Positions 10,352 through 17,124 of a stretch of DNA of 38,249 bases are shown here, in pieces. Origin of the DNA: Promethearchaeota archaeon (GTDB lineage: Archaea > Asgardarchaeota > Lokiarchaeia > Sigyniarchaeales > SOKP01). The position numbers and the translations under genes are program-made. The notes under the pieces are model-generated. The model was not told the origin of the DNA and made no database searches. It saw nothing but the letters and a program-made list of their open reading frames with translations. Every line of letters starts with the position of its first letter. Within the stretch, counting starts at the first letter, position 1. The DNA is taken from contig SHMW01000036.1 in the NCBI GenBank assembly GCA_008080735.1, forward strand, positions 1 through 38,249. Direction: 5' to 3'.

Positions 10352-12580
10352 TTAAGAAAAATATTTCTTATTGTCATACTTTCGTCCAATATTTTTTATT
10401 GCTTCATTTTCTCGTATACGCTCGTCAAGCGAACGGATTTTTTTATTAATCATATAAAGATCTTGCTTTAAATTTTTAAATGCCCTTAAATAATCAACTT
10501 CTGTAATTTTTCCCTCATCGAATTTTCTATCTAAGTTTTTCAGCGTTTCATGAACACTGAATCTCTCCTTTTTAAGTTCAGTCATTTTTTTATGACAATC
10601 ATCACGCTCTCCCAAATGATCCTTATTTTGATAATTTTTCGGATCAAATGAAAGATTATCATCTCTAAAATATTCCGATAAATAATTTCGAGTGTAATCC
10701 TGAGTCGAAGGGTCAAGTCGAGGATTATTGTAAAACGACTCGGCAGATCGGCTATAGGTTTCTTGGTTAACATAATCATTAAATGCATTTCTCAAATTAT
10801 TATTGGGGAATCCTTGTTTTTGAAATCGTTCAAGCTGCTTCATTAAAATATTTTTTTCTTCAGAATTACTTGGAATTGGCTCATTTCTTGAAAAATTTCG
10901 AGGATTGTAGTTTTGATACCGGTTTGGATAGAGAATGTTCTGAAAACGGAAATTTTGAGAATGATTTGAATTATTAGGATATTGAGTATCATTAGGGGCG
11001 ATTGATGATGTTCCATATTGATGATTGTTATAATGTGGGACTCGACTCTGAGAATTGTATGGGTGATTTTGGTTATTCGGATAACTTTGCTGATATGGAG
11101 GTTCAATATACGGGTTTATATAGTAATTCGGTGGTGGAGGCGTGTTTCGGTTGTCGTTATGGTAATTATTTTGTCTATGAGGGTATTGGTTTTGTCGCGA
11201 TTGATAAGAATTGTTTTCATAACGTATGGGAGCTTGTTGATATCCTTGATTATAATTACCTGAATTTGGGTTTTGAGAGGAATATTCTGGATAGTCTCCA
11301 TTAGCTCTATTGGCATAATTCAGATTATTTTTTTCAGTATCATGGTTTTTTTCATTGTTAATCTTACATTTTAAGCTAAAAAATGAATTTATACCATCTT
11401 CGATGAAATTTTTTAAATTTGTAAGATCTGCATTGAGTTTCTCAATTTTTTTGGCAGATTCTTTATCATAAATTGCCGTTTCATCAAAATTTCGAGCCAA
11501 AAGAATATATTCAATAACTCTGGAAATCGCTTTATTTGGCAATGAAAATTCATATTCTCCATAAGCGAATTTGATATATAATTTTTTAAACAATTTTCCC
11601 TTTTCCTTTATCCTTTGAAGATCATCTACAGGTGCCTTGAAAATTAATTCTTGTTTTTTTTTGAAAAATCCATATTCATGAACAAATGATAAGTCTAGAT
11701 TAGTGATAAACAGAATCCCGTTTCTTCTTTTAAAAATATCTTGATAATTTGTACCGCTGGATAATTTTGCATTAATCGCATAAACGGGTTTCTCATCATC
11801 TGCTAAATTGATGAAACGTTTATACTCTGTAAAGTATTTTGTGATTTTATCTATAAACGAGAGATTCTTTTTAATGGATTCAATATCATTATTGATTGTT
11901 CCAATATTATCTTCTATAAACTCATCAATTGATTCTCGACTTCTGTATAAATTTTCTAAAATCCCTTCTATAATTCTAATACTCGTATTAGGCTGCGAGT
12001 AAATATCAAAGAAATACTCCTTATTAAGAGATAGATGATGGAAATGTATGCTAATCTTCTCTAATAACTGATCTTCTATATATTTCAATAATTTAAATAA
12101 TGAAAAAAGTTCTGATTCCATTTTAGGAAAATGATAACATCGTATAGGTGGGGCTCGGGCTTTTTTCACTTTTTCCCGTATCATATAAAGATTATTTATA
12201 ACTTCTCTGAAAGGATCCAAAAAATTTCTGGTCTCTTTGATTAGCTCTAAAAAAGTTTGCTCTAATTTCTCTTTTTTTTCATAAATATTTATAATTCGAT
12301 GCGAATGGCATTTAGGACAAGATTTTATGTATTGTGTAACGTTTATCACATTTTCACTCCCACAATCTGCACAAATTTTAATCTTCCCTATTTTTTTTTC
12401 CTCAGATTCTTGAATTTGAATATTTTTAGAATTACAATCTTGGCACACTAAGGATTCAACTTTATCATCATCAAGACAGTCAGAGCAGCAGCTCGCACCG
12501 CAATTTTCACAATAATAAGCTAAAGGTTCTCTACCTTGGCAGAATCTACAAAAATGATTCTCTATTAAATGCTCTGACAT
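10352..12580 (-). CDS. Multidomain protein: B-box/Zn-ribbon cluster, coiled coil, PH-like domain, N/Q/Y/P-rich low-complexity region, steadiness-box-like C-terminus
   Basis: 742-aa ORF with CRFC, CENC..CC.DC, CQDC, CADC and CPKC; GILFITNLDLSF...APVDDLQRI PH-like pattern; N/Q/Y-rich tract; terminal HETLKNLDRKFDEGKITEVDYLRAFKNL. Domain identities are by eye. Confidence 0.7.
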   Translation of the reverse strand: MSEHLIENHFCRFCQGREPLAYYCENCGASCCSDCLDDDKVESLVCQDCNSKNIQIQESEEKKIGKIKICADCGSENVINVTQYIKSCPKCHSHRIINIYEKKEKLEQTFLELIKETRNFLDPFREVINNLYMIREKVKKARAPPIRCYHFPKMESELFSLFKLLKYIEDQLLEKISIHFHHLSLNKEYFFDIYSQPNTSIRIIEGILENLYRSRESIDEFIEDNIGTINNDIESIKKNLSFIDKITKYFTEYKRFINLADDEKPVYAINAKLSSGTNYQDIFKRRNGILFITNLDLSFVHEYGFFKKKQELIFKAPVDDLQRIKEKGKLFKKLYIKFAYGEYEFSLPNKAISRVIEYILLARNFDETAIYDKESAKKIEKLNADLTNLKNFIEDGINSFFSLKCKINNEKNHDTEKNNLNYANRANGDYPEYSSQNPNSGNYNQGYQQAPIRYENNSYQSRQNQYPHRQNNYHNDNRNTPPPPNYYINPYIEPPYQQSYPNNQNHPYNSQSRVPHYNNHQYGTSSIAPNDTQYPNNSNHSQNFRFQNILYPNRYQNYNPRNFSRNEPIPSNSEEKNILMKQLERFQKQGFPNNNLRNAFNDYVNQETYSRSAESFYNNPRLDPSTQDYTRNYLSEYFRDDNLSFDPKNYQNKDHLGERDDCHKKMTELKKERFSVHETLKNLDRKFDEGKITEVDYLRAFKNLKQDLYMINKKIRSLDERIRENEAIKNIGRKYDNKKYFS

Positions 12581-12843
12581 TTTAATTTTTTTCCTTTATG
12601 AATAAAGAACAAATCGCTTTATTATTAGAAGGTGAGGTATACTTTTATTTTGCTATGTTATTTATGTATTACGTTTTTTAAATCAAAAATAAAGGGCGAG
12701 ATTCAAATAGCTGAAGAAACCCTATAGATAAAATTATATATTGGAAAATTTATAGAATTTAGCCGAAAGACCTAAAATAAGTGAGACATTAACATAAAAG
12801 AGAACCCCTATAGAATAAAAAATTCTATGATTTCTTTATTAAT

Positions 12844-13320
12844 ATGGTAGAATGTTATCCTATTAAGAAAATATCTTATTATGGGACATTTGTATTTCTA
12901 GATTTAGATAGGTTTCGCAATTGCATTGAAAAAAAAGGATGGTCAGAATTTAAGCCAAATTCTATTAGTGGATTTTTAACTGAAGAGTTGGAAAAATATG
13001 TAAGAAAATATCGCGGTTTAGTTATATGGGGATTGAATAAGAGGAGAGGTACTGAAGAAGCGATTTTATTTTTTCATCAAAAATCGAAAATAATTTATGA
13101 ATTGTTCGAAAATATTAGGCGAAAAATAAAAAGATTAGCAGAAAAATTAGATGCTCCAACAAGCTTAAGTATAGGCATGGTAAGAGGGGCAGCACCATTA
13201 ATTAAACAAATCAAATCTCATAATAAAAAAGAATTTAAAAAGGATCCAAATATTTTAATGGCGTATAGGGCACTTAAAAAAGCCAAAAAGAATGGAGGAA
13301 ATTGTATTGTCCAACTCTAA
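12844..13320 (+). CDS. Stand-alone divergent GGDEF-like nucleotidyl cyclase-fold protein
   Basis: FLDLDRFR, RRGTEEAIL, LSIGMV and AYRALKKAKKNGGNCIV correspond in order to the GGDEF hallmarks DxDxFK, RxGGEEF, SIG and ADxALYxAKxxGRN. Confidence 0.75.
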   Translation: MVECYPIKKISYYGTFVFLDLDRFRNCIEKKGWSEFKPNSISGFLTEELEKYVRKYRGLVIWGLNKRRGTEEAILFFHQKSKIIYELFENIRRKIKRLAEKLDAPTSLSIGMVRGAAPLIKQIKSHNKKEFKKDPNILMAYRALKKAKKNGGNCIVQL

Positions 13321-13358
13321 AATGTATGAAAATAAACCTAAAAATAATCGATAGATAA

Positions 13359-13934
13359 ATGACTATTATCGATACTCATATTCATCTTGAAGGGCGCTCT
13401 TCATGTTCCGTTTTACCCGCACAAAGATTATACGGGAATTTATCTCCTCGATTGGATGGAATTTGCATCACAGATCATTGGGTTCTTAAGGAGTATAAAA
13501 AATTTTCCCTAACAGAGTTTAAAGTCTTCTTCGGAGTAGAGTTAAGAAGCACGGAAGGGGATATATTAGCTTATGGTTTAGATATGCTTCCCTCCCAAGA
13601 TTTAACCACTAAACAAATGATTAATTTTATTCATATGCATAACGGAGTTGCTGTGGCAGCACATCCCTTTTCCAATCGTCATCTTGCGTTTCATGATGCC
13701 GTTTTTAATTATAATTTCGATGCAATAGAGATAAACGGCGCTATAGGAAAGAAAAGCAATGAATTAGCAAAACAAGCGGCAATTTCAATGAATTTGCCCA
13801 TGACGGGGGGGAGTGATGCTCATTCAGTAGAACAATTGAACAGCATAGCGACGCATTTTGATACTAAGATAGAATCAGTAAGAGATATAGTAAATGCTAT
13901 CAGAGCTAAAAAATGTCGTCCTATAAATATCTAG
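13359..13934 (+). CDS. PHP-family metal-dependent phosphoesterase
   Basis: DTHIH, ITDH, GVE, AAHPF, AIEING and GGSDAH. Confidence 0.92.
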   Translation: MTIIDTHIHLEGRSSCSVLPAQRLYGNLSPRLDGICITDHWVLKEYKKFSLTEFKVFFGVELRSTEGDILAYGLDMLPSQDLTTKQMINFIHMHNGVAVAAHPFSNRHLAFHDAVFNYNFDAIEINGAIGKKSNELAKQAAISMNLPMTGGSDAHSVEQLNSIATHFDTKIESVRDIVNAIRAKKCRPINI

Positions 13935-14042
13935 TCAAATTTAGTATCGTATATCTTCCTTAAAATTAAAAAATTAACTAAAATCAAATAAGTTTAATCC
14001 CATTAACGGATGATATTGAGCGATTTCCTACGAAGTAGAGAG

Positions 14043-14336
14043 TTATTTAATAATCTTTATTACTTCTCCTAAAGCTTGACCAGGCAATCCTGCCTTTTTA
14101 AAATTAGCTCTCACTGCTCCATTATTTCCATGGGCACGACTAATTTTACCTTTCAGTTCTTTGCCAGCTGGACTATACCATACAACGGTCCGACCAATAA
14201 GCTTATTTGCTTCCTTTCTGGTATTAATGCTCGGAAAAACAAGGATACACTGTTTTGGATGTATAACGTGTCTTGATCTCCTATAATTGGCAATCCTTCC
14301 TTCCATGCCGATAACAGTTGTTTTATTTTTACTCAT
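14043..14336 (-). CDS. rpl35ae: Large ribosomal subunit protein eL33 (L35Ae)
   Basis: YRRS..., LIGRTVVW, GKISRAHGNNGAVRANF...LPGQALG. Confidence 0.95.
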   Translation of the reverse strand: MSKNKTTVIGMEGRIANYRRSRHVIHPKQCILVFPSINTRKEANKLIGRTVVWYSPAGKELKGKISRAHGNNGAVRANFKKAGLPGQALGEVIKIIK

Positions 14337-14459
14337 GGCTATAATGTTCTTTTCCTACTATTTAACAAACAAAGTATTTAAAAAAATAAAAAATTTTAGG
14401 TTTGGATTCAAATTTAATTACTCTAAGATGTAATAATTATTTGAAATTAATTTTTTAAC

Positions 14460-15860
14460 TTGGTAGCTATGAAAGCAGGATTTTCAAAAATTAAAATAAC
14501 ACCAGAGAATTATATAGGGATACCTATGGCAGGATATTCGCGTCCAGATCCTTGTTTAGGTAAGCTAGATGATATATTTGTAAGAGGAATCCTAATTGAA
14601 AGTGAGGAATCGCAAGGTAATAACCGATTTCTGCTCTTACTCTCATTTGATCTCTTGAAACTTCCGAGATCCATTGTCTCCTATTTCAGTGATAGAATTA
14701 TAGAAAAATATGACTGGATTTCAAGAGAAAATATACTATTTCATGCGACTCATACTCATTCTGCTCCTGATCTAACTGGAGAGTTTCATTGGCCTGGTGG
14801 AACACTTTCAGTAGTCAAGGGTATTATGTTTGGAGTAAATAAAAATGATAAGTATATTGTATGGATAAGTCACCAAGTATTAAAATTGATAGGGAAATTA
14901 AAAAAATCGTTAAGAACAGCAAAATTGGCTTGGAGAAAGGAGATTTTCAATCCAAATCTAGTGATTAATAGAAGACACCCATCAAGAGTACCAGAGACCG
15001 AACTTGGAATAATATCATTTAAAGATCTAGATGATACTTTATTTGGGCTGATTATTAATTATCAGTGCCATCCTACCACTCTCTCATTATTCAATAATAA
15101 ACTTTCCGCAGACTTTCCCGGACAGGTTATCTCTAAAATTTCAGAACTAACAGATAATAATGTTAAGAGTATATACTTCAATGGACCTGCCGGGGATTTA
15201 AATCCTATTACTACATGTGGTACTGATTACAAGGGTTTAGAACAAAATAAATCTCCAATCTATACCCAATTGGGAACTTATGAACATACCAAAAAGCTCG
15301 GATTTCAGATCGCAAAAGAAGCATTAGCATTAAGTTATTCAATTCCAGATGAAAACTATAATAAAATGATCAAAATCCGCTCCAATATAAAGATACTTTC
15401 AATACCTTTTAGAGATGCTCGATATTTCTCGTCTGAATGGTTTCAAAACAAGTTAATCCATGCTATCAAAAAGTATATATTATTACCTGTAATTTTGAGT
15501 CTCTATGATAAAAATAATTTTCCTATCTTCCAAATCGAGAAACAAGGAGCAAGAATTTATGCAAAAACTCTTTTTCAATTTATTGAATTCTCCATTGGAG
15601 AAGACAAAGACAAAAAATTTAATATTTTCACTGTTCCTGGAGAATTATTCGAAGATATTGGTAATTCTCTTCTTGAAAAATCTCCCGCTGGAAAGAAAAA
15701 TAGTATTTTAATTCAGAATGCAAATGATTGGATTGCGTATCTTTTTCCAATCGATGAATATGTAGAGATAGGGGGATATGAACCAGTCGCGAGTTTTGGT
15801 CCCTTATGTGGATATTATATTGAACGAGAAATATTAGATTTTTTTAAAAACCATACTTAA
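14460..15860 (+). CDS. Neutral/alkaline ceramidase-like Zn amidohydrolase family protein
   Basis: KAGFSKIKITP, PMAGY, HATHTHSAP, CHPT, SADFPG, NGPAGD, PGELF and GGYE. The start may be ATG 14469. Confidence 0.82.
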   Translation: MVAMKAGFSKIKITPENYIGIPMAGYSRPDPCLGKLDDIFVRGILIESEESQGNNRFLLLLSFDLLKLPRSIVSYFSDRIIEKYDWISRENILFHATHTHSAPDLTGEFHWPGGTLSVVKGIMFGVNKNDKYIVWISHQVLKLIGKLKKSLRTAKLAWRKEIFNPNLVINRRHPSRVPETELGIISFKDLDDTLFGLIINYQCHPTTLSLFNNKLSADFPGQVISKISELTDNNVKSIYFNGPAGDLNPITTCGTDYKGLEQNKSPIYTQLGTYEHTKKLGFQIAKEALALSYSIPDENYNKMIKIRSNIKILSIPFRDARYFSSEWFQNKLIHAIKKYILLPVILSLYDKNNFPIFQIEKQGARIYAKTLFQFIEFSIGEDKDKKFNIFTVPGELFEDIGNSLLEKSPAGKKNSILIQNANDWIAYLFPIDEYVEIGGYEPVASFGPLCGYYIEREILDFFKNHT

Positions 15861-15921: not shown

Positions 15922-17124
15922 CTATATTATTAAATCATACGCTTTTTGCCATGCATTTTGGTTGATCTGATGCAATTTTTGTTCAAAATCTTTGTGATCT
16001 AATTCATCTTCCTCCTCAACGAGATTCTGAACGTCTATGTAAACATTTCTTTCAATGGAATCCATTTCATTTACATATGTACGCTTATTTTTCTCGTTTA
16101 CTAATTTTTTAAAGGGATTGATGAATTTTTGATGGCGTATCCAATACCAGTCTTCATTCTTCTGTTTATAAGGACCTGGTTCTAATGCTTTCTGTCTGTT
16201 AATCGGAAAAACATAGGGTTTATACATACTTAAACAAGGTTTGGAACTTCCGGTAAACCAATGAATGGACGTTTTTCCATTCGATTTCAATTCAGAAACT
16301 TGAGACCCAGTCGTCTGAAATTGTCCATGCATACATAAACCGGCTTCATGTTCACGTAGAAATTCCATCATCATATCAACGGTGACATTCCCAATATTTT
16401 CTTCAAGTAATTCATTAGATTTTACTTGTCTATAAGTTAAAGGAACCTCCTCGGGAACAGATCTTTGAGAAAAAATTCGAGCAAAATCAAAATCTTCCTC
16501 CGATTGACAATAATCTTCTTCAATAGCATGCTGTACAATTCCTTCTCGTCTTAAATCTCCCTTTCCTCGGATCGACAAGTTATTGGAAATGGATCGTGCC
16601 TTCTCAACCTTTTCAGCCACCCACCACTCATCTGCAGTTTCCAAAACATAAGCTTCCTTTTGATCAGCAATAAGATACGAGTTGTGATAATACCATCCAT
16701 GACCTTCATATGCACAATCACCACCTTGCCCGTGCTCCTCCAATAACTCAGTTATAACTGATAAAGCTTCTTGTGCGTTTTTTGCTCGTTCAAGCCCTAG
16801 TCTTAATAGATCCATCCCAAGGAGACCTTCTTTTTTTAGTTCCTCTTTTGTATAAACCGCTTCGTTTCCAATCGCTACTCCAAATTCGTTAGCTCCCATT
16901 TCTGCTCCCCACATCCAATATGGTTGACTTAAAATTATCTCATAAGTTTGTTCAACTTGGGGAATAGATATATAGGTACACTGAACATCTTCTCCTTTCT
17001 CGTAGGTTTGGCGGGATACAGAAGTTATTAATTGTATTTCATCTTGAGGTCTGTCGGAATTTTTCCCAAAAATCGTATGTCCTTTGATTGTGGCTTCAGG
17101 TAATGCTACTAACGTATCACACAT
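15922..17124 (-). CDS. Secernin/peptidase C69 family Ntn hydrolase (copy 1)
   Basis: N-terminal MCDT, GKNSDRP, WMWGAEMGANEFGVAIGNEAV, LLGMDLLRLGLER and YHNSYLIAD. Confidence 0.92.
   Translation of the reverse strand: MCDTLVALPEATIKGHTIFGKNSDRPQDEIQLITSVSRQTYEKGEDVQCTYISIPQVEQTYEIILSQPYWMWGAEMGANEFGVAIGNEAVYTKEELKKEGLLGMDLLRLGLERAKNAQEALSVITELLEEHGQGGDCAYEGHGWYYHNSYLIADQKEAYVLETADEWWVAEKVEKARSISNNLSIRGKGDLRREGIVQHAIEEDYCQSEEDFDFARIFSQRSVPEEVPLTYRQVKSNELLEENIGNVTVDMMMEFLREHEAGLCMHGQFQTTGSQVSELKSNGKTSIHWFTGSSKPCLSMYKPYVFPINRQKALEPGPYKQKNEDWYWIRHQKFINPFKKLVNEKNKRTYVNEMDSIERNVYIDVQNLVEEEDELDHKDFEQKLHQINQNAWQKAYDLII

What the first reader, a model, noticed from the sequence alone, without database searches (positions are those of the whole stretch)
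12844..13934. Two-gene candidate second-messenger module: divergent stand-alone GGDEF-fold protein plus PHP phosphoesterase
Seen: a 158-aa gene with GGDEF hallmarks in the right order and the metal-binding acidic residues retained (DLD; RRGTEE in place of RxGGEE). The guanine-reading segment (INDxxGH...GD) is replaced by IEKKGWSEFKPNS, and there is no sensor domain. A complete PHP phosphoesterase follows 38 nt downstream on the same strand, and the flanking genes are on the opposite strand. Known: c-di-GMP signalling is not established in archaea; GGDEF-like palm folds also occur in Cas10, Thg1 and archaeal GTP cyclohydrolase III; PHP enzymes hydrolyse nucleotide phosphoesters, including some cyclic phosphates. 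Inference: a synthase/eraser pair for a nucleotide other than c-di-GMP.
Basis: partly seen in the sequence, partly recalled or inferred. Interest (0 to 1): 0.78.

Follow-up and report, generated by a model that had tools for sequence, protein, structure and literature searches.

The report
Archaeal stand-alone GGDEF-like enzyme with PHP
This Asgard archaeon carries a small, sensor-less relative of the bacterial enzymes that make cyclic-di-GMP, with its catalytic residues intact, next to a PHP phosphoesterase; the protein family was noted in 2005 and 2010 but never characterised, and the recurring pairing hints at an untested archaeal nucleotide-making pathway.

Summary
Window 12844-13320 encodes a 158-aa single-domain protein with GGDEF motif order and fold. 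Window 13359-13934, 38 nt downstream, encodes a complete 191-aa PHP phosphoesterase. The protein is not a new kind. It belongs to the small archaeal family of stand-alone GGDEF relatives noted by Galperin (2005) and Anantharaman et al. (2010). I verified homology to APE_1864.1 (Q9YAS9). This scan has already flagged the family on other genomes.

The family spans Asgard archaea and Thermoproteota. D20, D22, N39, G69-T70-E71-E72 and K148 are invariant, so an active NTP-using enzyme is likely. The guanine-reading residues are not conserved.

PHP lies immediately downstream in 14 of 32 loci, in two deep clades, and again next to a distant Toprim-fused member. The pairing is not obligatory:
- A same-genus genome keeps PHP at the syntenic site without the GGDEF-like gene.
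- Thermoproteota members lack PHP.
- Jordarchaeia members are translationally coupled to tRNA transglycosylase TgtA instead.

The "synthase plus eraser" reading is partly supported. A two-step nucleotide pathway is my best guess (about 0.45), and an RNA or tRNA-end role is the main rival. No biochemistry exists for any member.

The parts
12581..12843 (.). 263-nt intergenic region between the divergent 742-aa gene and the GGDEF-like gene; presumed promoter region
   Evidence: ORF map. Its first ~130 nt align with the same-genus locus that lacks the gene. No archaeal promoter tool was available.
12844..13320 (+). Gene for a 158-aa stand-alone GGDEF-like palm-domain protein (APE1864/MK0296-type archaeal family)
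12901..12909 (+). D20-L21-D22, the metal-binding aspartates of the first strand; D20 and D22 are invariant in the family
   Evidence: Aligned to the DxD of diguanylate cyclases.
12925..12963 (+). I28-S40 (IEKKGWSEFKPNS), a family-specific segment with a 5-residue insertion that replaces the guanine-reading N...GD segment. It contains the invariant N39 and near-invariant P38. S42 (Thr in most members) lies just beyond this segment, at the position of the Asp that reads guanine.
   Evidence: and the alignment to 5llw
13042..13059 (+). R67-R68-G69-T70-E71-E72, the counterpart of RxGG(D/E)E. G69, T70, E71 and E72 are invariant, and Thr replaces the second Gly.
13285..13287 (+). K148, invariant Lys in the C-terminal AKKxGGN helix; counterpart of the phosphate-binding Lys of the ADxALYxAKxxGRN motif
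   Evidence: The phosphate-binding role is inferred from established GGDEF structures.
13321..13358 (.). 38-nt spacer between the two genes; no terminator-like hairpin, so co-transcription is plausible
13359..13934 (+). Gene for a 191-aa compact PHP metal-dependent phosphoesterase. Ligands H7, H9, H40, E61, H102, D153 and H155 are invariant.

Best explanation
The 158-aa gene encodes a catalytically competent member of the small archaeal family of stand-alone GGDEF-domain relatives (APE1864/MK0296 type). Inferred mechanism: D20, D22 and E71/E72 hold the catalytic Mg2+/Mn2+ ions and K148 holds the triphosphate of an NTP. The enzyme transfers the nucleotidyl group to a hydroxyl of a second small substrate, most simply a second NTP held by a second subunit as in GGDEF and mCpol enzymes. 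This releases pyrophosphate and yields a small linear or cyclic di- or oligonucleotide. Guanine is not specifically read, because Ser/Thr replaces the guanine-reading Asp and a hydrophobic residue replaces the Asn. In Promethearchaeota (Loki-type), Heimdallarchaeota and a Toprim-fused lineage the gene is co-transcribed with a compact PHP phosphoesterase, which most likely hydrolyses a phosphoester of that product (turnover or maturation) or its pyrophosphate or 5'-triphosphate by-product. The coupling is facultative, since either gene can exist without the other.

Shown here: fold, family membership, conservation of catalytic residues, and recurrent adjacency. Inferred: substrate, product, dimeric mechanism, the PHP substrate, and any signalling role.
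For: Fold: model pLDDT 91.7; GGDEF Z 13.1, mCpol Z 12.7, class III cyclases Z 11-12; Foldseek top hits are all GGDEF or cyclases.

Sequence: the family profile hits only diguanylate cyclases in the PDB.

Active site: D20, D22, G69, T70, E71, E72 and K148 are invariant over 27 members down to 27% identity.

Family: homology to APE_1864.1/Q9YAS9 is verified. The 2010 paper predicts these proteins to be active enzymes (PMC2904730).

PHP partner: it is predicted active, with all ligands invariant. It is closest to nucleotide- or nucleic-acid-acting PHP enzymes: PsfC Z 19.5, TM0559 19.1, EndoQ 17.4, RNase AM 14.7.

Linkage: PHP lies directly downstream on the same strand in 13 loci and divergently in 1, of 32. 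These fall in two deeply separated, well-supported clades (100/98 and 100/100) whose other neighbours differ: L35Ae in one, a class I tRNA synthetase in the other. The arrangement recurs at L073. It also recurs with a 17-nt overlap next to the distant Toprim fusion P0055. Heimdall linked PHPs are a distinct orthologous clade apart from three paralog clades. Orphan PHP orthologs have no other recurrent neighbour. One Thermoproteota locus has a dual-specificity phosphatase 11 nt downstream, in the position PHP occupies elsewhere.

Base selectivity: Ser at the equivalent position lets Hypr GGDEF enzymes accept other purine NTPs (PMC6456294).
Against: PHP persists without the GGDEF-like gene. G186 (same genus, 97% complete) has the syntenic locus with only a 362-nt gap where the gene would be, and no copy was found elsewhere in that genome. 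G294 and G210 PHP orthologs nest within the linked clade. Similar PHP genes occur in 90 of 301 genomes against 23 of 301 for the palm gene.

18 of 32 loci have no PHP neighbour, including all Thermoproteota loci.

Co-transcribing a synthase with its own eraser at a fixed ratio is an odd design for signalling.

No sensor domain, receptor or effector was found. Anantharaman et al. judged the family unlikely to be signalling proteins.

In canonical GGDEF enzymes the combination of Ser/Thr at the base-reading position with a Glu-type motif is inactive (the 'Goldilocks' model). So substrate geometry here may differ, or my alignment of that loop, which carries a 5-residue insertion, may be wrong.

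No biochemical data exist for any family member.
Confidence: 0.45

Rival explanations
1. RNA or tRNA-end enzyme. The palm domain adds or transfers a nucleotide to an RNA or tRNA end (Thg1-like logic), or otherwise acts in RNA maturation or repair. The PHP protein then acts as a 5'-3' exoribonuclease, end phosphatase or endonuclease, like RNase AM, RNase RNM or EndoQ.
For: Neighbours are repeatedly RNA-related. tRNA-guanine(15) transglycosylase TgtA overlaps the gene start by 4-13 nt in Jordarchaeia and family f8. An RsmB/F-type RNA methyltransferase and a small TRAM protein flank it in three Thermoproteota-type loci. Class I tRNA synthetases, L35Ae and a Pol-beta nucleotidyltransferase lie next to the pair. 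One distant member is fused to a small Toprim domain of the PRK04017 family, which by my recollection, not tested here, includes RNase M5. The PHP fold is close to EndoQ and RNase AM. An earlier scan note (e1-1360593) reached the same impression from another genome.
Against: A 150-residue palm with no fingers, thumb or RNA-binding domain resembles enzymes that make small nucleotides (GGDEF, mCpol, class III cyclases) more than polymerases. Thg1 was not among the top 50 structural matches, which does not exclude it. Archaeal genomes are dense in translation genes, and I made no statistical test of this enrichment. The patchy distribution (23 of 301 Asgard genomes) argues against a core RNA-maturation role.
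Confidence: 0.25
2. The adjacency has no functional meaning. The GGDEF-like enzyme works alone, whatever its product, and the PHP protein is an unrelated housekeeping phosphoesterase that happens to be a stable neighbour.
For: PHP orthologs are retained where the palm gene is missing. PHP is about four times more widespread. Most family members lack PHP nearby. In Promethearchaeota the whole block (742-aa gene, PHP, L35Ae) is syntenic.
Against: The adjacency is the only feature shared between the Promethearchaeota and Heimdall loci, whose other neighbours differ. It recurs with overlapping or near-overlapping reading frames in Heimdall loci and next to the distant Toprim-fused member. Heimdall genomes have three to four PHP paralogs, yet the same orthologous one is always adjacent.
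Confidence: 0.2
3. GTP-derived metabolite enzyme, analogous to GTP cyclohydrolase III. It would feed pterin, flavin or 7-deazaguanine (preQ0/archaeosine) synthesis, with PHP removing phosphate or a cyclic phosphate.
For: GTP cyclohydrolase III shares the fold (2qv6, Z 10.9). TgtA, which inserts preQ0 into tRNA, is translationally coupled to the gene in two Asgard lineages. Some PHP relatives hydrolyse cyclic phosphates (weak NCBIfam hit to a cyclic phosphate dihydrolase for the L071 PHP).
Against: The guanine-reading residues are not conserved. The protein is one domain of 158 aa, whereas the aligned GTP cyclohydrolase III chain is 253 residues. There is no sequence similarity to GTP cyclohydrolase III. 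No queC/D/E or riboflavin genes were seen nearby.
Confidence: 0.06
4. Anti-virus defence module of the Panoptes/mCpol type. A constitutive minimal polymerase makes a decoy or guard nucleotide.
For: Structural similarity to the Panoptes mCpol OptS (9mnr, Z 12.7, rmsd 2.7 A over 110 of 119 residues). It is a sensor-less stand-alone palm with a patchy phyletic pattern.
Against: No effector (2TM-beta, CARF-TM or other) is adjacent. There are no significant PADLOC hits. The neighbours are housekeeping genes in conserved synteny. The gene tree follows taxonomy, which suggests vertical inheritance with losses and not mobility. The gene is single-copy.
Confidence: 0.04

Closest known systems
Archaeal stand-alone GGDEF relatives typified by APE1864 (Aeropyrum pernix, Q9YAS9) and MK0296 (Methanopyrus kandleri); Galperin 2005 (PMC1183210), Anantharaman, Iyer and Aravind 2010 (PMC2904730)
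   Same: Archaeal and about 150 aa, a single palm domain with no signalling domains, and three acidic catalytic residues kept. Direct homology to APE_1864.1: 27% identity over 143 residues, pairwise E 8e-19, with all motifs in register.
   Different: This copy comes from an Asgard (Promethearchaeota-type) genome, and it is paired with a PHP gene. I found no paper that mentions that pairing. MK0296 itself could not be compared because no sequence was at hand.
Bacterial GGDEF diguanylate cyclases (Pfam PF00990; PleD, WspR, DosC, DgcB, GcbC)
   Same: Same fold (Z 12-13) and the same motif order: DxD strand, G-x-E-E loop, SxG strand, AKxxG-x-N helix. The metal and phosphate ligands are kept. Profile-level sequence similarity is weak but specific.
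   Different: There is no Pfam match. Thr replaces the second Gly of the signature. The Asn and Asp that read guanine are replaced, with a 5-residue insertion and a family-specific invariant Pro-Asn. There is no RxxD inhibitory site and no sensor or receiver domain. The product is unknown.
Hypr GGDEF enzymes (GacA, Bd0367) that make 3',3'-cGAMP
   Same: Ser/Thr instead of Asp at the position that reads the Watson-Crick face of the base. In GacA this relaxes specificity to other purines (PMC6456294).
   Different: Hypr enzymes keep GGDEF with Asp, keep the sugar-face Asn and carry receiver domains. This family has a Glu-type motif, which in canonical enzymes is incompatible with Ser.
Minimal CRISPR polymerase mCpol (Panoptes OptS, PDB 9mnr)
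   Same: A sensor-less, stand-alone minimal palm enzyme of similar size, with close structural similarity (Z 12.7, rmsd 2.7 A).
   Different: No detectable sequence similarity. No adjacent effector, and not in a defence context.
Compact stand-alone PHP phosphoesterases (T. maritima TM0559, PsfC, EndoQ catalytic domain, RNase AM/TrpH)
   Same: The second gene shares their fold (Z 14.7-19.5) and the full His/Asp/Glu metal-ligand set.
   Different: At 191 aa it is shorter than all of them. Sequence similarity to any solved PHP enzyme is marginal (E 0.044). The substrate is unknown.

Membership tests
Archaeal stand-alone GGDEF relatives (APE1864/MK0296 type) | Sequence homology to APE1864 (Q9YAS9) | tested here: met
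   The family profile hits a 1,669,696-bp contig at E 4.1e-37. The ORF is identified by exact look-up as APE_1864.1 / Q9YAS9. BLASTP against the window protein gives 27% identity over 143 aa, E 8e-19.
Archaeal stand-alone GGDEF relatives (APE1864/MK0296 type) | Sequence homology to MK0296 (Q8TYK1) | not tested
The link rests on both papers naming the two proteins together.
Archaeal stand-alone GGDEF relatives (APE1864/MK0296 type) | Three acidic catalytic residues of the palm retained; no signalling domains | tested here: met
   D20, D22, E71 and E72 are invariant. Members are 133-197 aa single domains. No longer forms were found by word search. The one exception is a Toprim fusion.
GGDEF diguanylate cyclase (Pfam PF00990) | Match to the Pfam/NCBIfam model at the curated threshold | tested here: not met
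   No Pfam hit at E <= 1. NCBIfam SiaD scores 15.4 bits against a cut-off of 290. One member, P0039, reaches 23.7 bits against a cut-off of 23.8.
GGDEF diguanylate cyclase (Pfam PF00990) | GGDEF-domain fold | tested here: met
   Z 13.1, rmsd 3.2 A, 130 residues aligned to DgcB; dozens of GGDEF chains at Z 12-13. Foldseek probability 1.00.
GGDEF diguanylate cyclase (Pfam PF00990) | GG(D/E)EF signature | tested here: not met
   The motif is G-T-E-E with an invariant Thr in place of the second Gly. The acidic pair is kept.
GGDEF diguanylate cyclase (Pfam PF00990) | Guanine-reading Asn and Asp (N335/D344 in PleD numbering, from established structures) | tested here: not met
   In the HMM alignment to 5llw the Asn position is I28 (variable and hydrophobic) and the Asp position is S42 (Thr in most members), with a 5-residue insertion between them. 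The loop alignment is of modest confidence.
GGDEF diguanylate cyclase (Pfam PF00990) | c-di-GMP synthesis from two GTP | not testable with these tools
   Needs an enzyme assay.
Minimal CRISPR polymerase (mCpol, Panoptes) | Stand-alone minimal palm with structural similarity to OptS | tested here: met
   9mnr Z 12.7, rmsd 2.7 A, 110 of 119 residues; tied with GGDEF.
Minimal CRISPR polymerase (mCpol, Panoptes) | Adjacent nucleotide-sensing effector (2TM-beta or CARF-TM) | tested here: not met
   No such gene in the window or in 32 related loci. PADLOC finds nothing significant.
GTP cyclohydrolase III | Larger GCH-III architecture and closest similarity to GCH-III | tested here: not met
   The model is a single palm domain of 158 aa. 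2qv6, a 253-residue chain, scores Z 10.9, below GGDEF, mCpol and class III cyclases. It is absent from the profile hits.
PHP phosphoesterase superfamily (second gene) | PHP fold with the His/Asp/Glu metal-ligand set | tested here: met
   PHP_C 56.9 bits against a cut-off of 21.3. H7, H9, H40, E61, H102, D153 and H155 are invariant in 17 sequences. Z 19.5 to PsfC and 19.1 to TM0559.

The most novel reading that the evidence does not exclude
The family synthesises a so far unknown nucleotide second messenger (not c-di-GMP) in Asgard and TACK archaea, and the PHP protein is its dedicated phosphodiesterase. That would be the first GGDEF-derived signalling pathway in archaea, present in the lineage closest to eukaryotes.
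Probability: 0.2. Interest if true: 0.85.

Novelty: new member of a known kind. Interest (0 to 1): 0.5.

Why it matters
Reviews state that archaea lack c-di-GMP and that diguanylate cyclases are almost exclusively bacterial (PMC10249747; see also PMC5847659, PMC8646023). This family is the main archaeal branch of that enzyme fold. It has an intact active site and has been known for twenty years, yet no activity has been assigned. It occurs in cultured hyperthermophiles (Aeropyrum pernix, Hyperthermus butylicus), so a simple assay is feasible. The recurrent PHP partner in Asgard archaea gives a second, testable component. Either outcome would fill a real gap: a new signalling nucleotide, or a palm enzyme working on RNA ends. 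This particular window adds another member and some useful comparative facts, not a new kind of system.

Tried and rejected
- Complex prediction of the GGDEF-like protein with the PHP protein returned 'no answer' (score 0.00). This is no evidence either way.
- The search for related loci with the wide alignment A2 failed for lack of a conserved stretch. The closer alignment A1 worked.
- The search for longer, fused relatives found none. The tool itself calls this weak evidence. The one fusion (P0055, Toprim) came from the exhaustive search. No fused form was seen in the 301 Asgard genomes, where the Toprim and palm parts always matched separate genes.
- PADLOC defence models gave only insignificant hits.
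- The viral structure library gave only phage GGDEF proteins and added nothing.
- The sigma-70 promoter scan does not apply to archaea. I used it only to note that no terminator-like hairpin lies in the 38-nt spacer.
- No remnant of the gene was found in the same-genus locus that lacks it, by tblastn, a profile search or DNA alignment. I therefore cannot say from that locus alone whether the gene was lost or gained. The PHP tree favours loss.
- I first read the TGT+DUF5591 neighbour as archaeosine synthase ArcS. NCBIfam shows it is TgtA: 547 and 572 bits against a cut-off of 350, while the ArcS model scores below its own cut-off.
- The TGT-like gene convergent with the family member in L068 is only a weak match (29.7 bits), so I do not count it as linkage.
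- Thg1 did not appear among the top structural matches. This does not exclude a relationship.
Full report
**What is there.** The window has low G+C (31-39%). Its gene content marks it as Asgard-type archaeal: ribosomal protein L35Ae, a protein with a weak Vps23-core match, and Roadblock domains. Its closest named relatives are Promethearchaeota MAGs. At 12844-13320 (+) lies a 158-aa ORF. After a 38-nt spacer, at 13359-13934 (+), lies a 191-aa ORF. Both flanking genes are on the minus strand.

**The 158-aa protein.**
- Pfam finds nothing. NCBIfam gives only a weak match to the diguanylate cyclase SiaD, though it spans the whole protein (E 0.009).
- An exhaustive HMMER search of 1.84 billion representative proteins finds only 39 clusters, nearly all 130-200 aa.
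- In an alignment of 27 members down to 27% identity, D20, D22, N39, G63, G69, T70, E71, E72 and K148 are invariant.
- The AlphaFold2 model is confident (pLDDT 91.7).
- Its best structural matches are GGDEF domains (Z 13.1, rmsd 3.2 A over 130 residues). The Panoptes minimal CRISPR polymerase is tied within error (9mnr, Z 12.7, rmsd 2.7 A over 110 residues). Class III cyclases (Z 11-12), GTP cyclohydrolase III (10.9) and Cas10 (10.9) score lower.
- A profile of the family picks out only diguanylate cyclases among PDB sequences. The scores are weak but consistent: best E 3.5e-4, and the top 18 hits are all GGDEF.
- In that alignment the DxD strand, the G-x-E-E loop, the SxG strand and the AK..G.N helix are in register. 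The guanine-reading Asn falls on a variable hydrophobic residue. The guanine-reading Asp falls on S42 (Thr in most members). Five extra residues are inserted, followed by a family-specific invariant Pro-Asn.
- In Hypr GGDEF enzymes, Ser at that position relaxes base choice (PMC6456294). The same paper reports that Ser combined with a Glu-type motif is inactive in canonical enzymes, so substrate geometry here may differ.

**It is a known, uncharacterised family.** Earlier notes of this scan pointed to MK0296 and APE1864. I checked this myself.
- Galperin (2005) lists both as truncated GGDEF sequences.
[quoted passage not shown] They predict these to be active but unlikely signalling proteins.
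- Searching the Acidilobaceae with the family profile gave hits in 27 of 41 genomes.
- The hit on a 1,669,696-bp contig was identified by exact sequence look-up as APE_1864.1 / Q9YAS9.
- It aligns with the window protein at 27% identity, E 8e-19.
- MK0296 itself could not be compared.
- The family spans Promethearchaeota, Helarchaeota, Heimdallarchaeota and Jordarchaeia, and many Thermoproteota, including Hyperthermus butylicus A2BL52.
- Within the window's phylum it is patchy: 23 of 301 genomes. It is found in 6/6 and 10/11 genomes of two families, but in only 1 of 68 in the window's own family and in neither of the two other genomes of its genus.
- The gene tree follows taxonomy, which fits old vertical inheritance with many losses.

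**The PHP gene.**
- It matches PHP_C above the Pfam threshold.
- It keeps H7, H9, H40, E61, H102, D153 and H155 invariant.
- It folds confidently (pLDDT 95.2).
- It is closest to compact stand-alone PHP enzymes: PsfC (Z 19.5), TM0559 (19.1), EndoQ (17.4) and RNase AM (14.7). Histidinol-phosphate and tyrosine phosphatases score far lower, about 9.

**Is the pair real?** In 32 loci, PHP lies directly downstream on the same strand in 13 and divergently in one. These 14 fall into two well-supported, deeply separated clades of the palm-gene tree: Promethearchaeota plus family f16 (100/98), and Heimdallarchaeota (100/100). The other neighbours differ between the clades: L35Ae and a 742-aa zinc-ribbon protein in the first, a class I tRNA synthetase in the second. 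Two further instances turned up:
- Locus L073.
- A distant member, P0055. Its N-terminus is a small Toprim domain (PRK04017 family), its motif reads GTEQ, and it matches the family at hhalign probability 99.3%. Its stop is overlapped by 17 nt by a 197-aa PHP gene homologous to the window's (hhalign 99.9%).

Heimdall genomes carry three to four PHP paralogs, yet the adjacent one is always the same orthologous clade. Orphan PHP orthologs have no other recurrent neighbour. Taken together this is more than synteny.

**But the pair is not obligatory.**
- G186, a genome of the same genus that is 97% complete, has the syntenic block: 742-aa gene, PHP, L35Ae and the ceramidase-like gene. It has only a 362-nt gap where the palm gene would be, and no copy was found elsewhere in that genome.
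- In the PHP tree, the orphan PHPs of G186, G294 and G210 nest within the linked Promethearchaeota clade (96/87). This indicates loss of the palm gene with PHP kept.
- PHP-like genes occur in 90 of 301 genomes.
- No Thermoproteota locus has PHP. There the recurrent neighbours are TBP, a small TRAM protein, an RsmB/F-type RNA methyltransferase, and once a dual-specificity phosphatase 11 nt downstream.
- In Jordarchaeia and family f8, the palm gene overlaps the stop codon of tRNA-guanine(15) transglycosylase TgtA.
- More distant members sit beside unrelated genes.

**Interpretation.** What is shown: an intact GGDEF-type active site without guanine-specific residues, membership of the APE1864-type family, and a recurrent but facultative PHP partner in Asgard lineages.

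What I infer: an NTP-dependent nucleotidyl transfer that yields a small nucleotide, with PHP acting on that product or its by-product (confidence about 0.45). Small-nucleotide chemistry is favoured because every characterised enzyme with such a minimal palm (GGDEF, mCpol, class III cyclases) makes small nucleotides.

The main rival (0.25) is a role at RNA or tRNA ends. It is suggested by the TgtA coupling, the RNA-modification neighbours, the Toprim fusion, and the likeness of the PHP protein to EndoQ and RNase AM.

A signalling role with PHP as a dedicated eraser is possible but unsupported. I found no sensor, receptor or effector. Defence-type organisation is absent.

**Novelty.** The family is in the literature, and this scan has met it on several other genomes. 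I found no paper on the PHP association. The window is a new member of a known, uncharacterised kind.

Noticed in passing
L028:6358-8438 (G038), L029:6995-9045 (G004), L053 (Candidatus Jordarchaeum madagascariense): In Jordarchaeia and one other Asgard family, the GGDEF-like gene overlaps the stop codon of tRNA-guanine(15) transglycosylase TgtA by 4-13 nt. This suggests translational coupling to a tRNA-modification enzyme instead of to PHP.
   Followed up: partly
L071:4782-6237: A 292-aa fusion of a small Toprim domain (PRK04017 family) with a GGDEF-like domain (motif GTEQ). A DUF167/YggU gene precedes it, and a PHP gene overlaps its end by 17 nt. Its lineage is unknown, and no such fusion was found in 301 Asgard genomes.
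   Followed up: partly
L042 (G186:C7:24146-32718) against window 10352-15860: A same-genus genome has the same gene order but lacks the GGDEF-like gene, with a 362-nt gap instead of 778 nt. It is a natural presence/absence pair that would suit comparative metabolomics.
   Followed up: yes
L066:4438-5346: In one Thermoproteota MAG, a 303-aa protein with a dual-specificity phosphatase domain and a weak Pox_E10-like region lies 11 nt downstream of the GGDEF-like gene, in the position PHP occupies in Asgard genomes.
   Followed up: no
L032:4589-7136 (G148): In an Asgard family f16 genome, the GGDEF-like gene sits between a convergent HD_4 (RelA/SpoT-type HD) gene and a divergent operon of a Pol-beta-type nucleotidyltransferase whose end overlaps a PHP gene by 4 nt. 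That puts four nucleotide-handling genes together.
   Followed up: no
window 14460-15860 (+): A 466-aa protein with a sub-threshold match to the N-terminal part of neutral/alkaline ceramidase (PF04734, E 6.8e-6, 25.4 bits against a cut-off of 32.1). It is conserved at 58% identity in the same-genus genome. A ceramidase-like enzyme would be unusual in an archaeon.
   Followed up: no
window 10352-12580 (-): A 742-aa protein with N-terminal zinc ribbons, a long N/Q/Y/P-rich tract and a weak Vps23-core match (E 0.026). It is conserved upstream of the pair in Promethearchaeota relatives.
   Followed up: no
window 15922-17124 (-): A 400-aa peptidase C69 / secernin-like protein (PF03577, E 7.1e-7), convergent with the ceramidase-like gene.
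   Followed up: no
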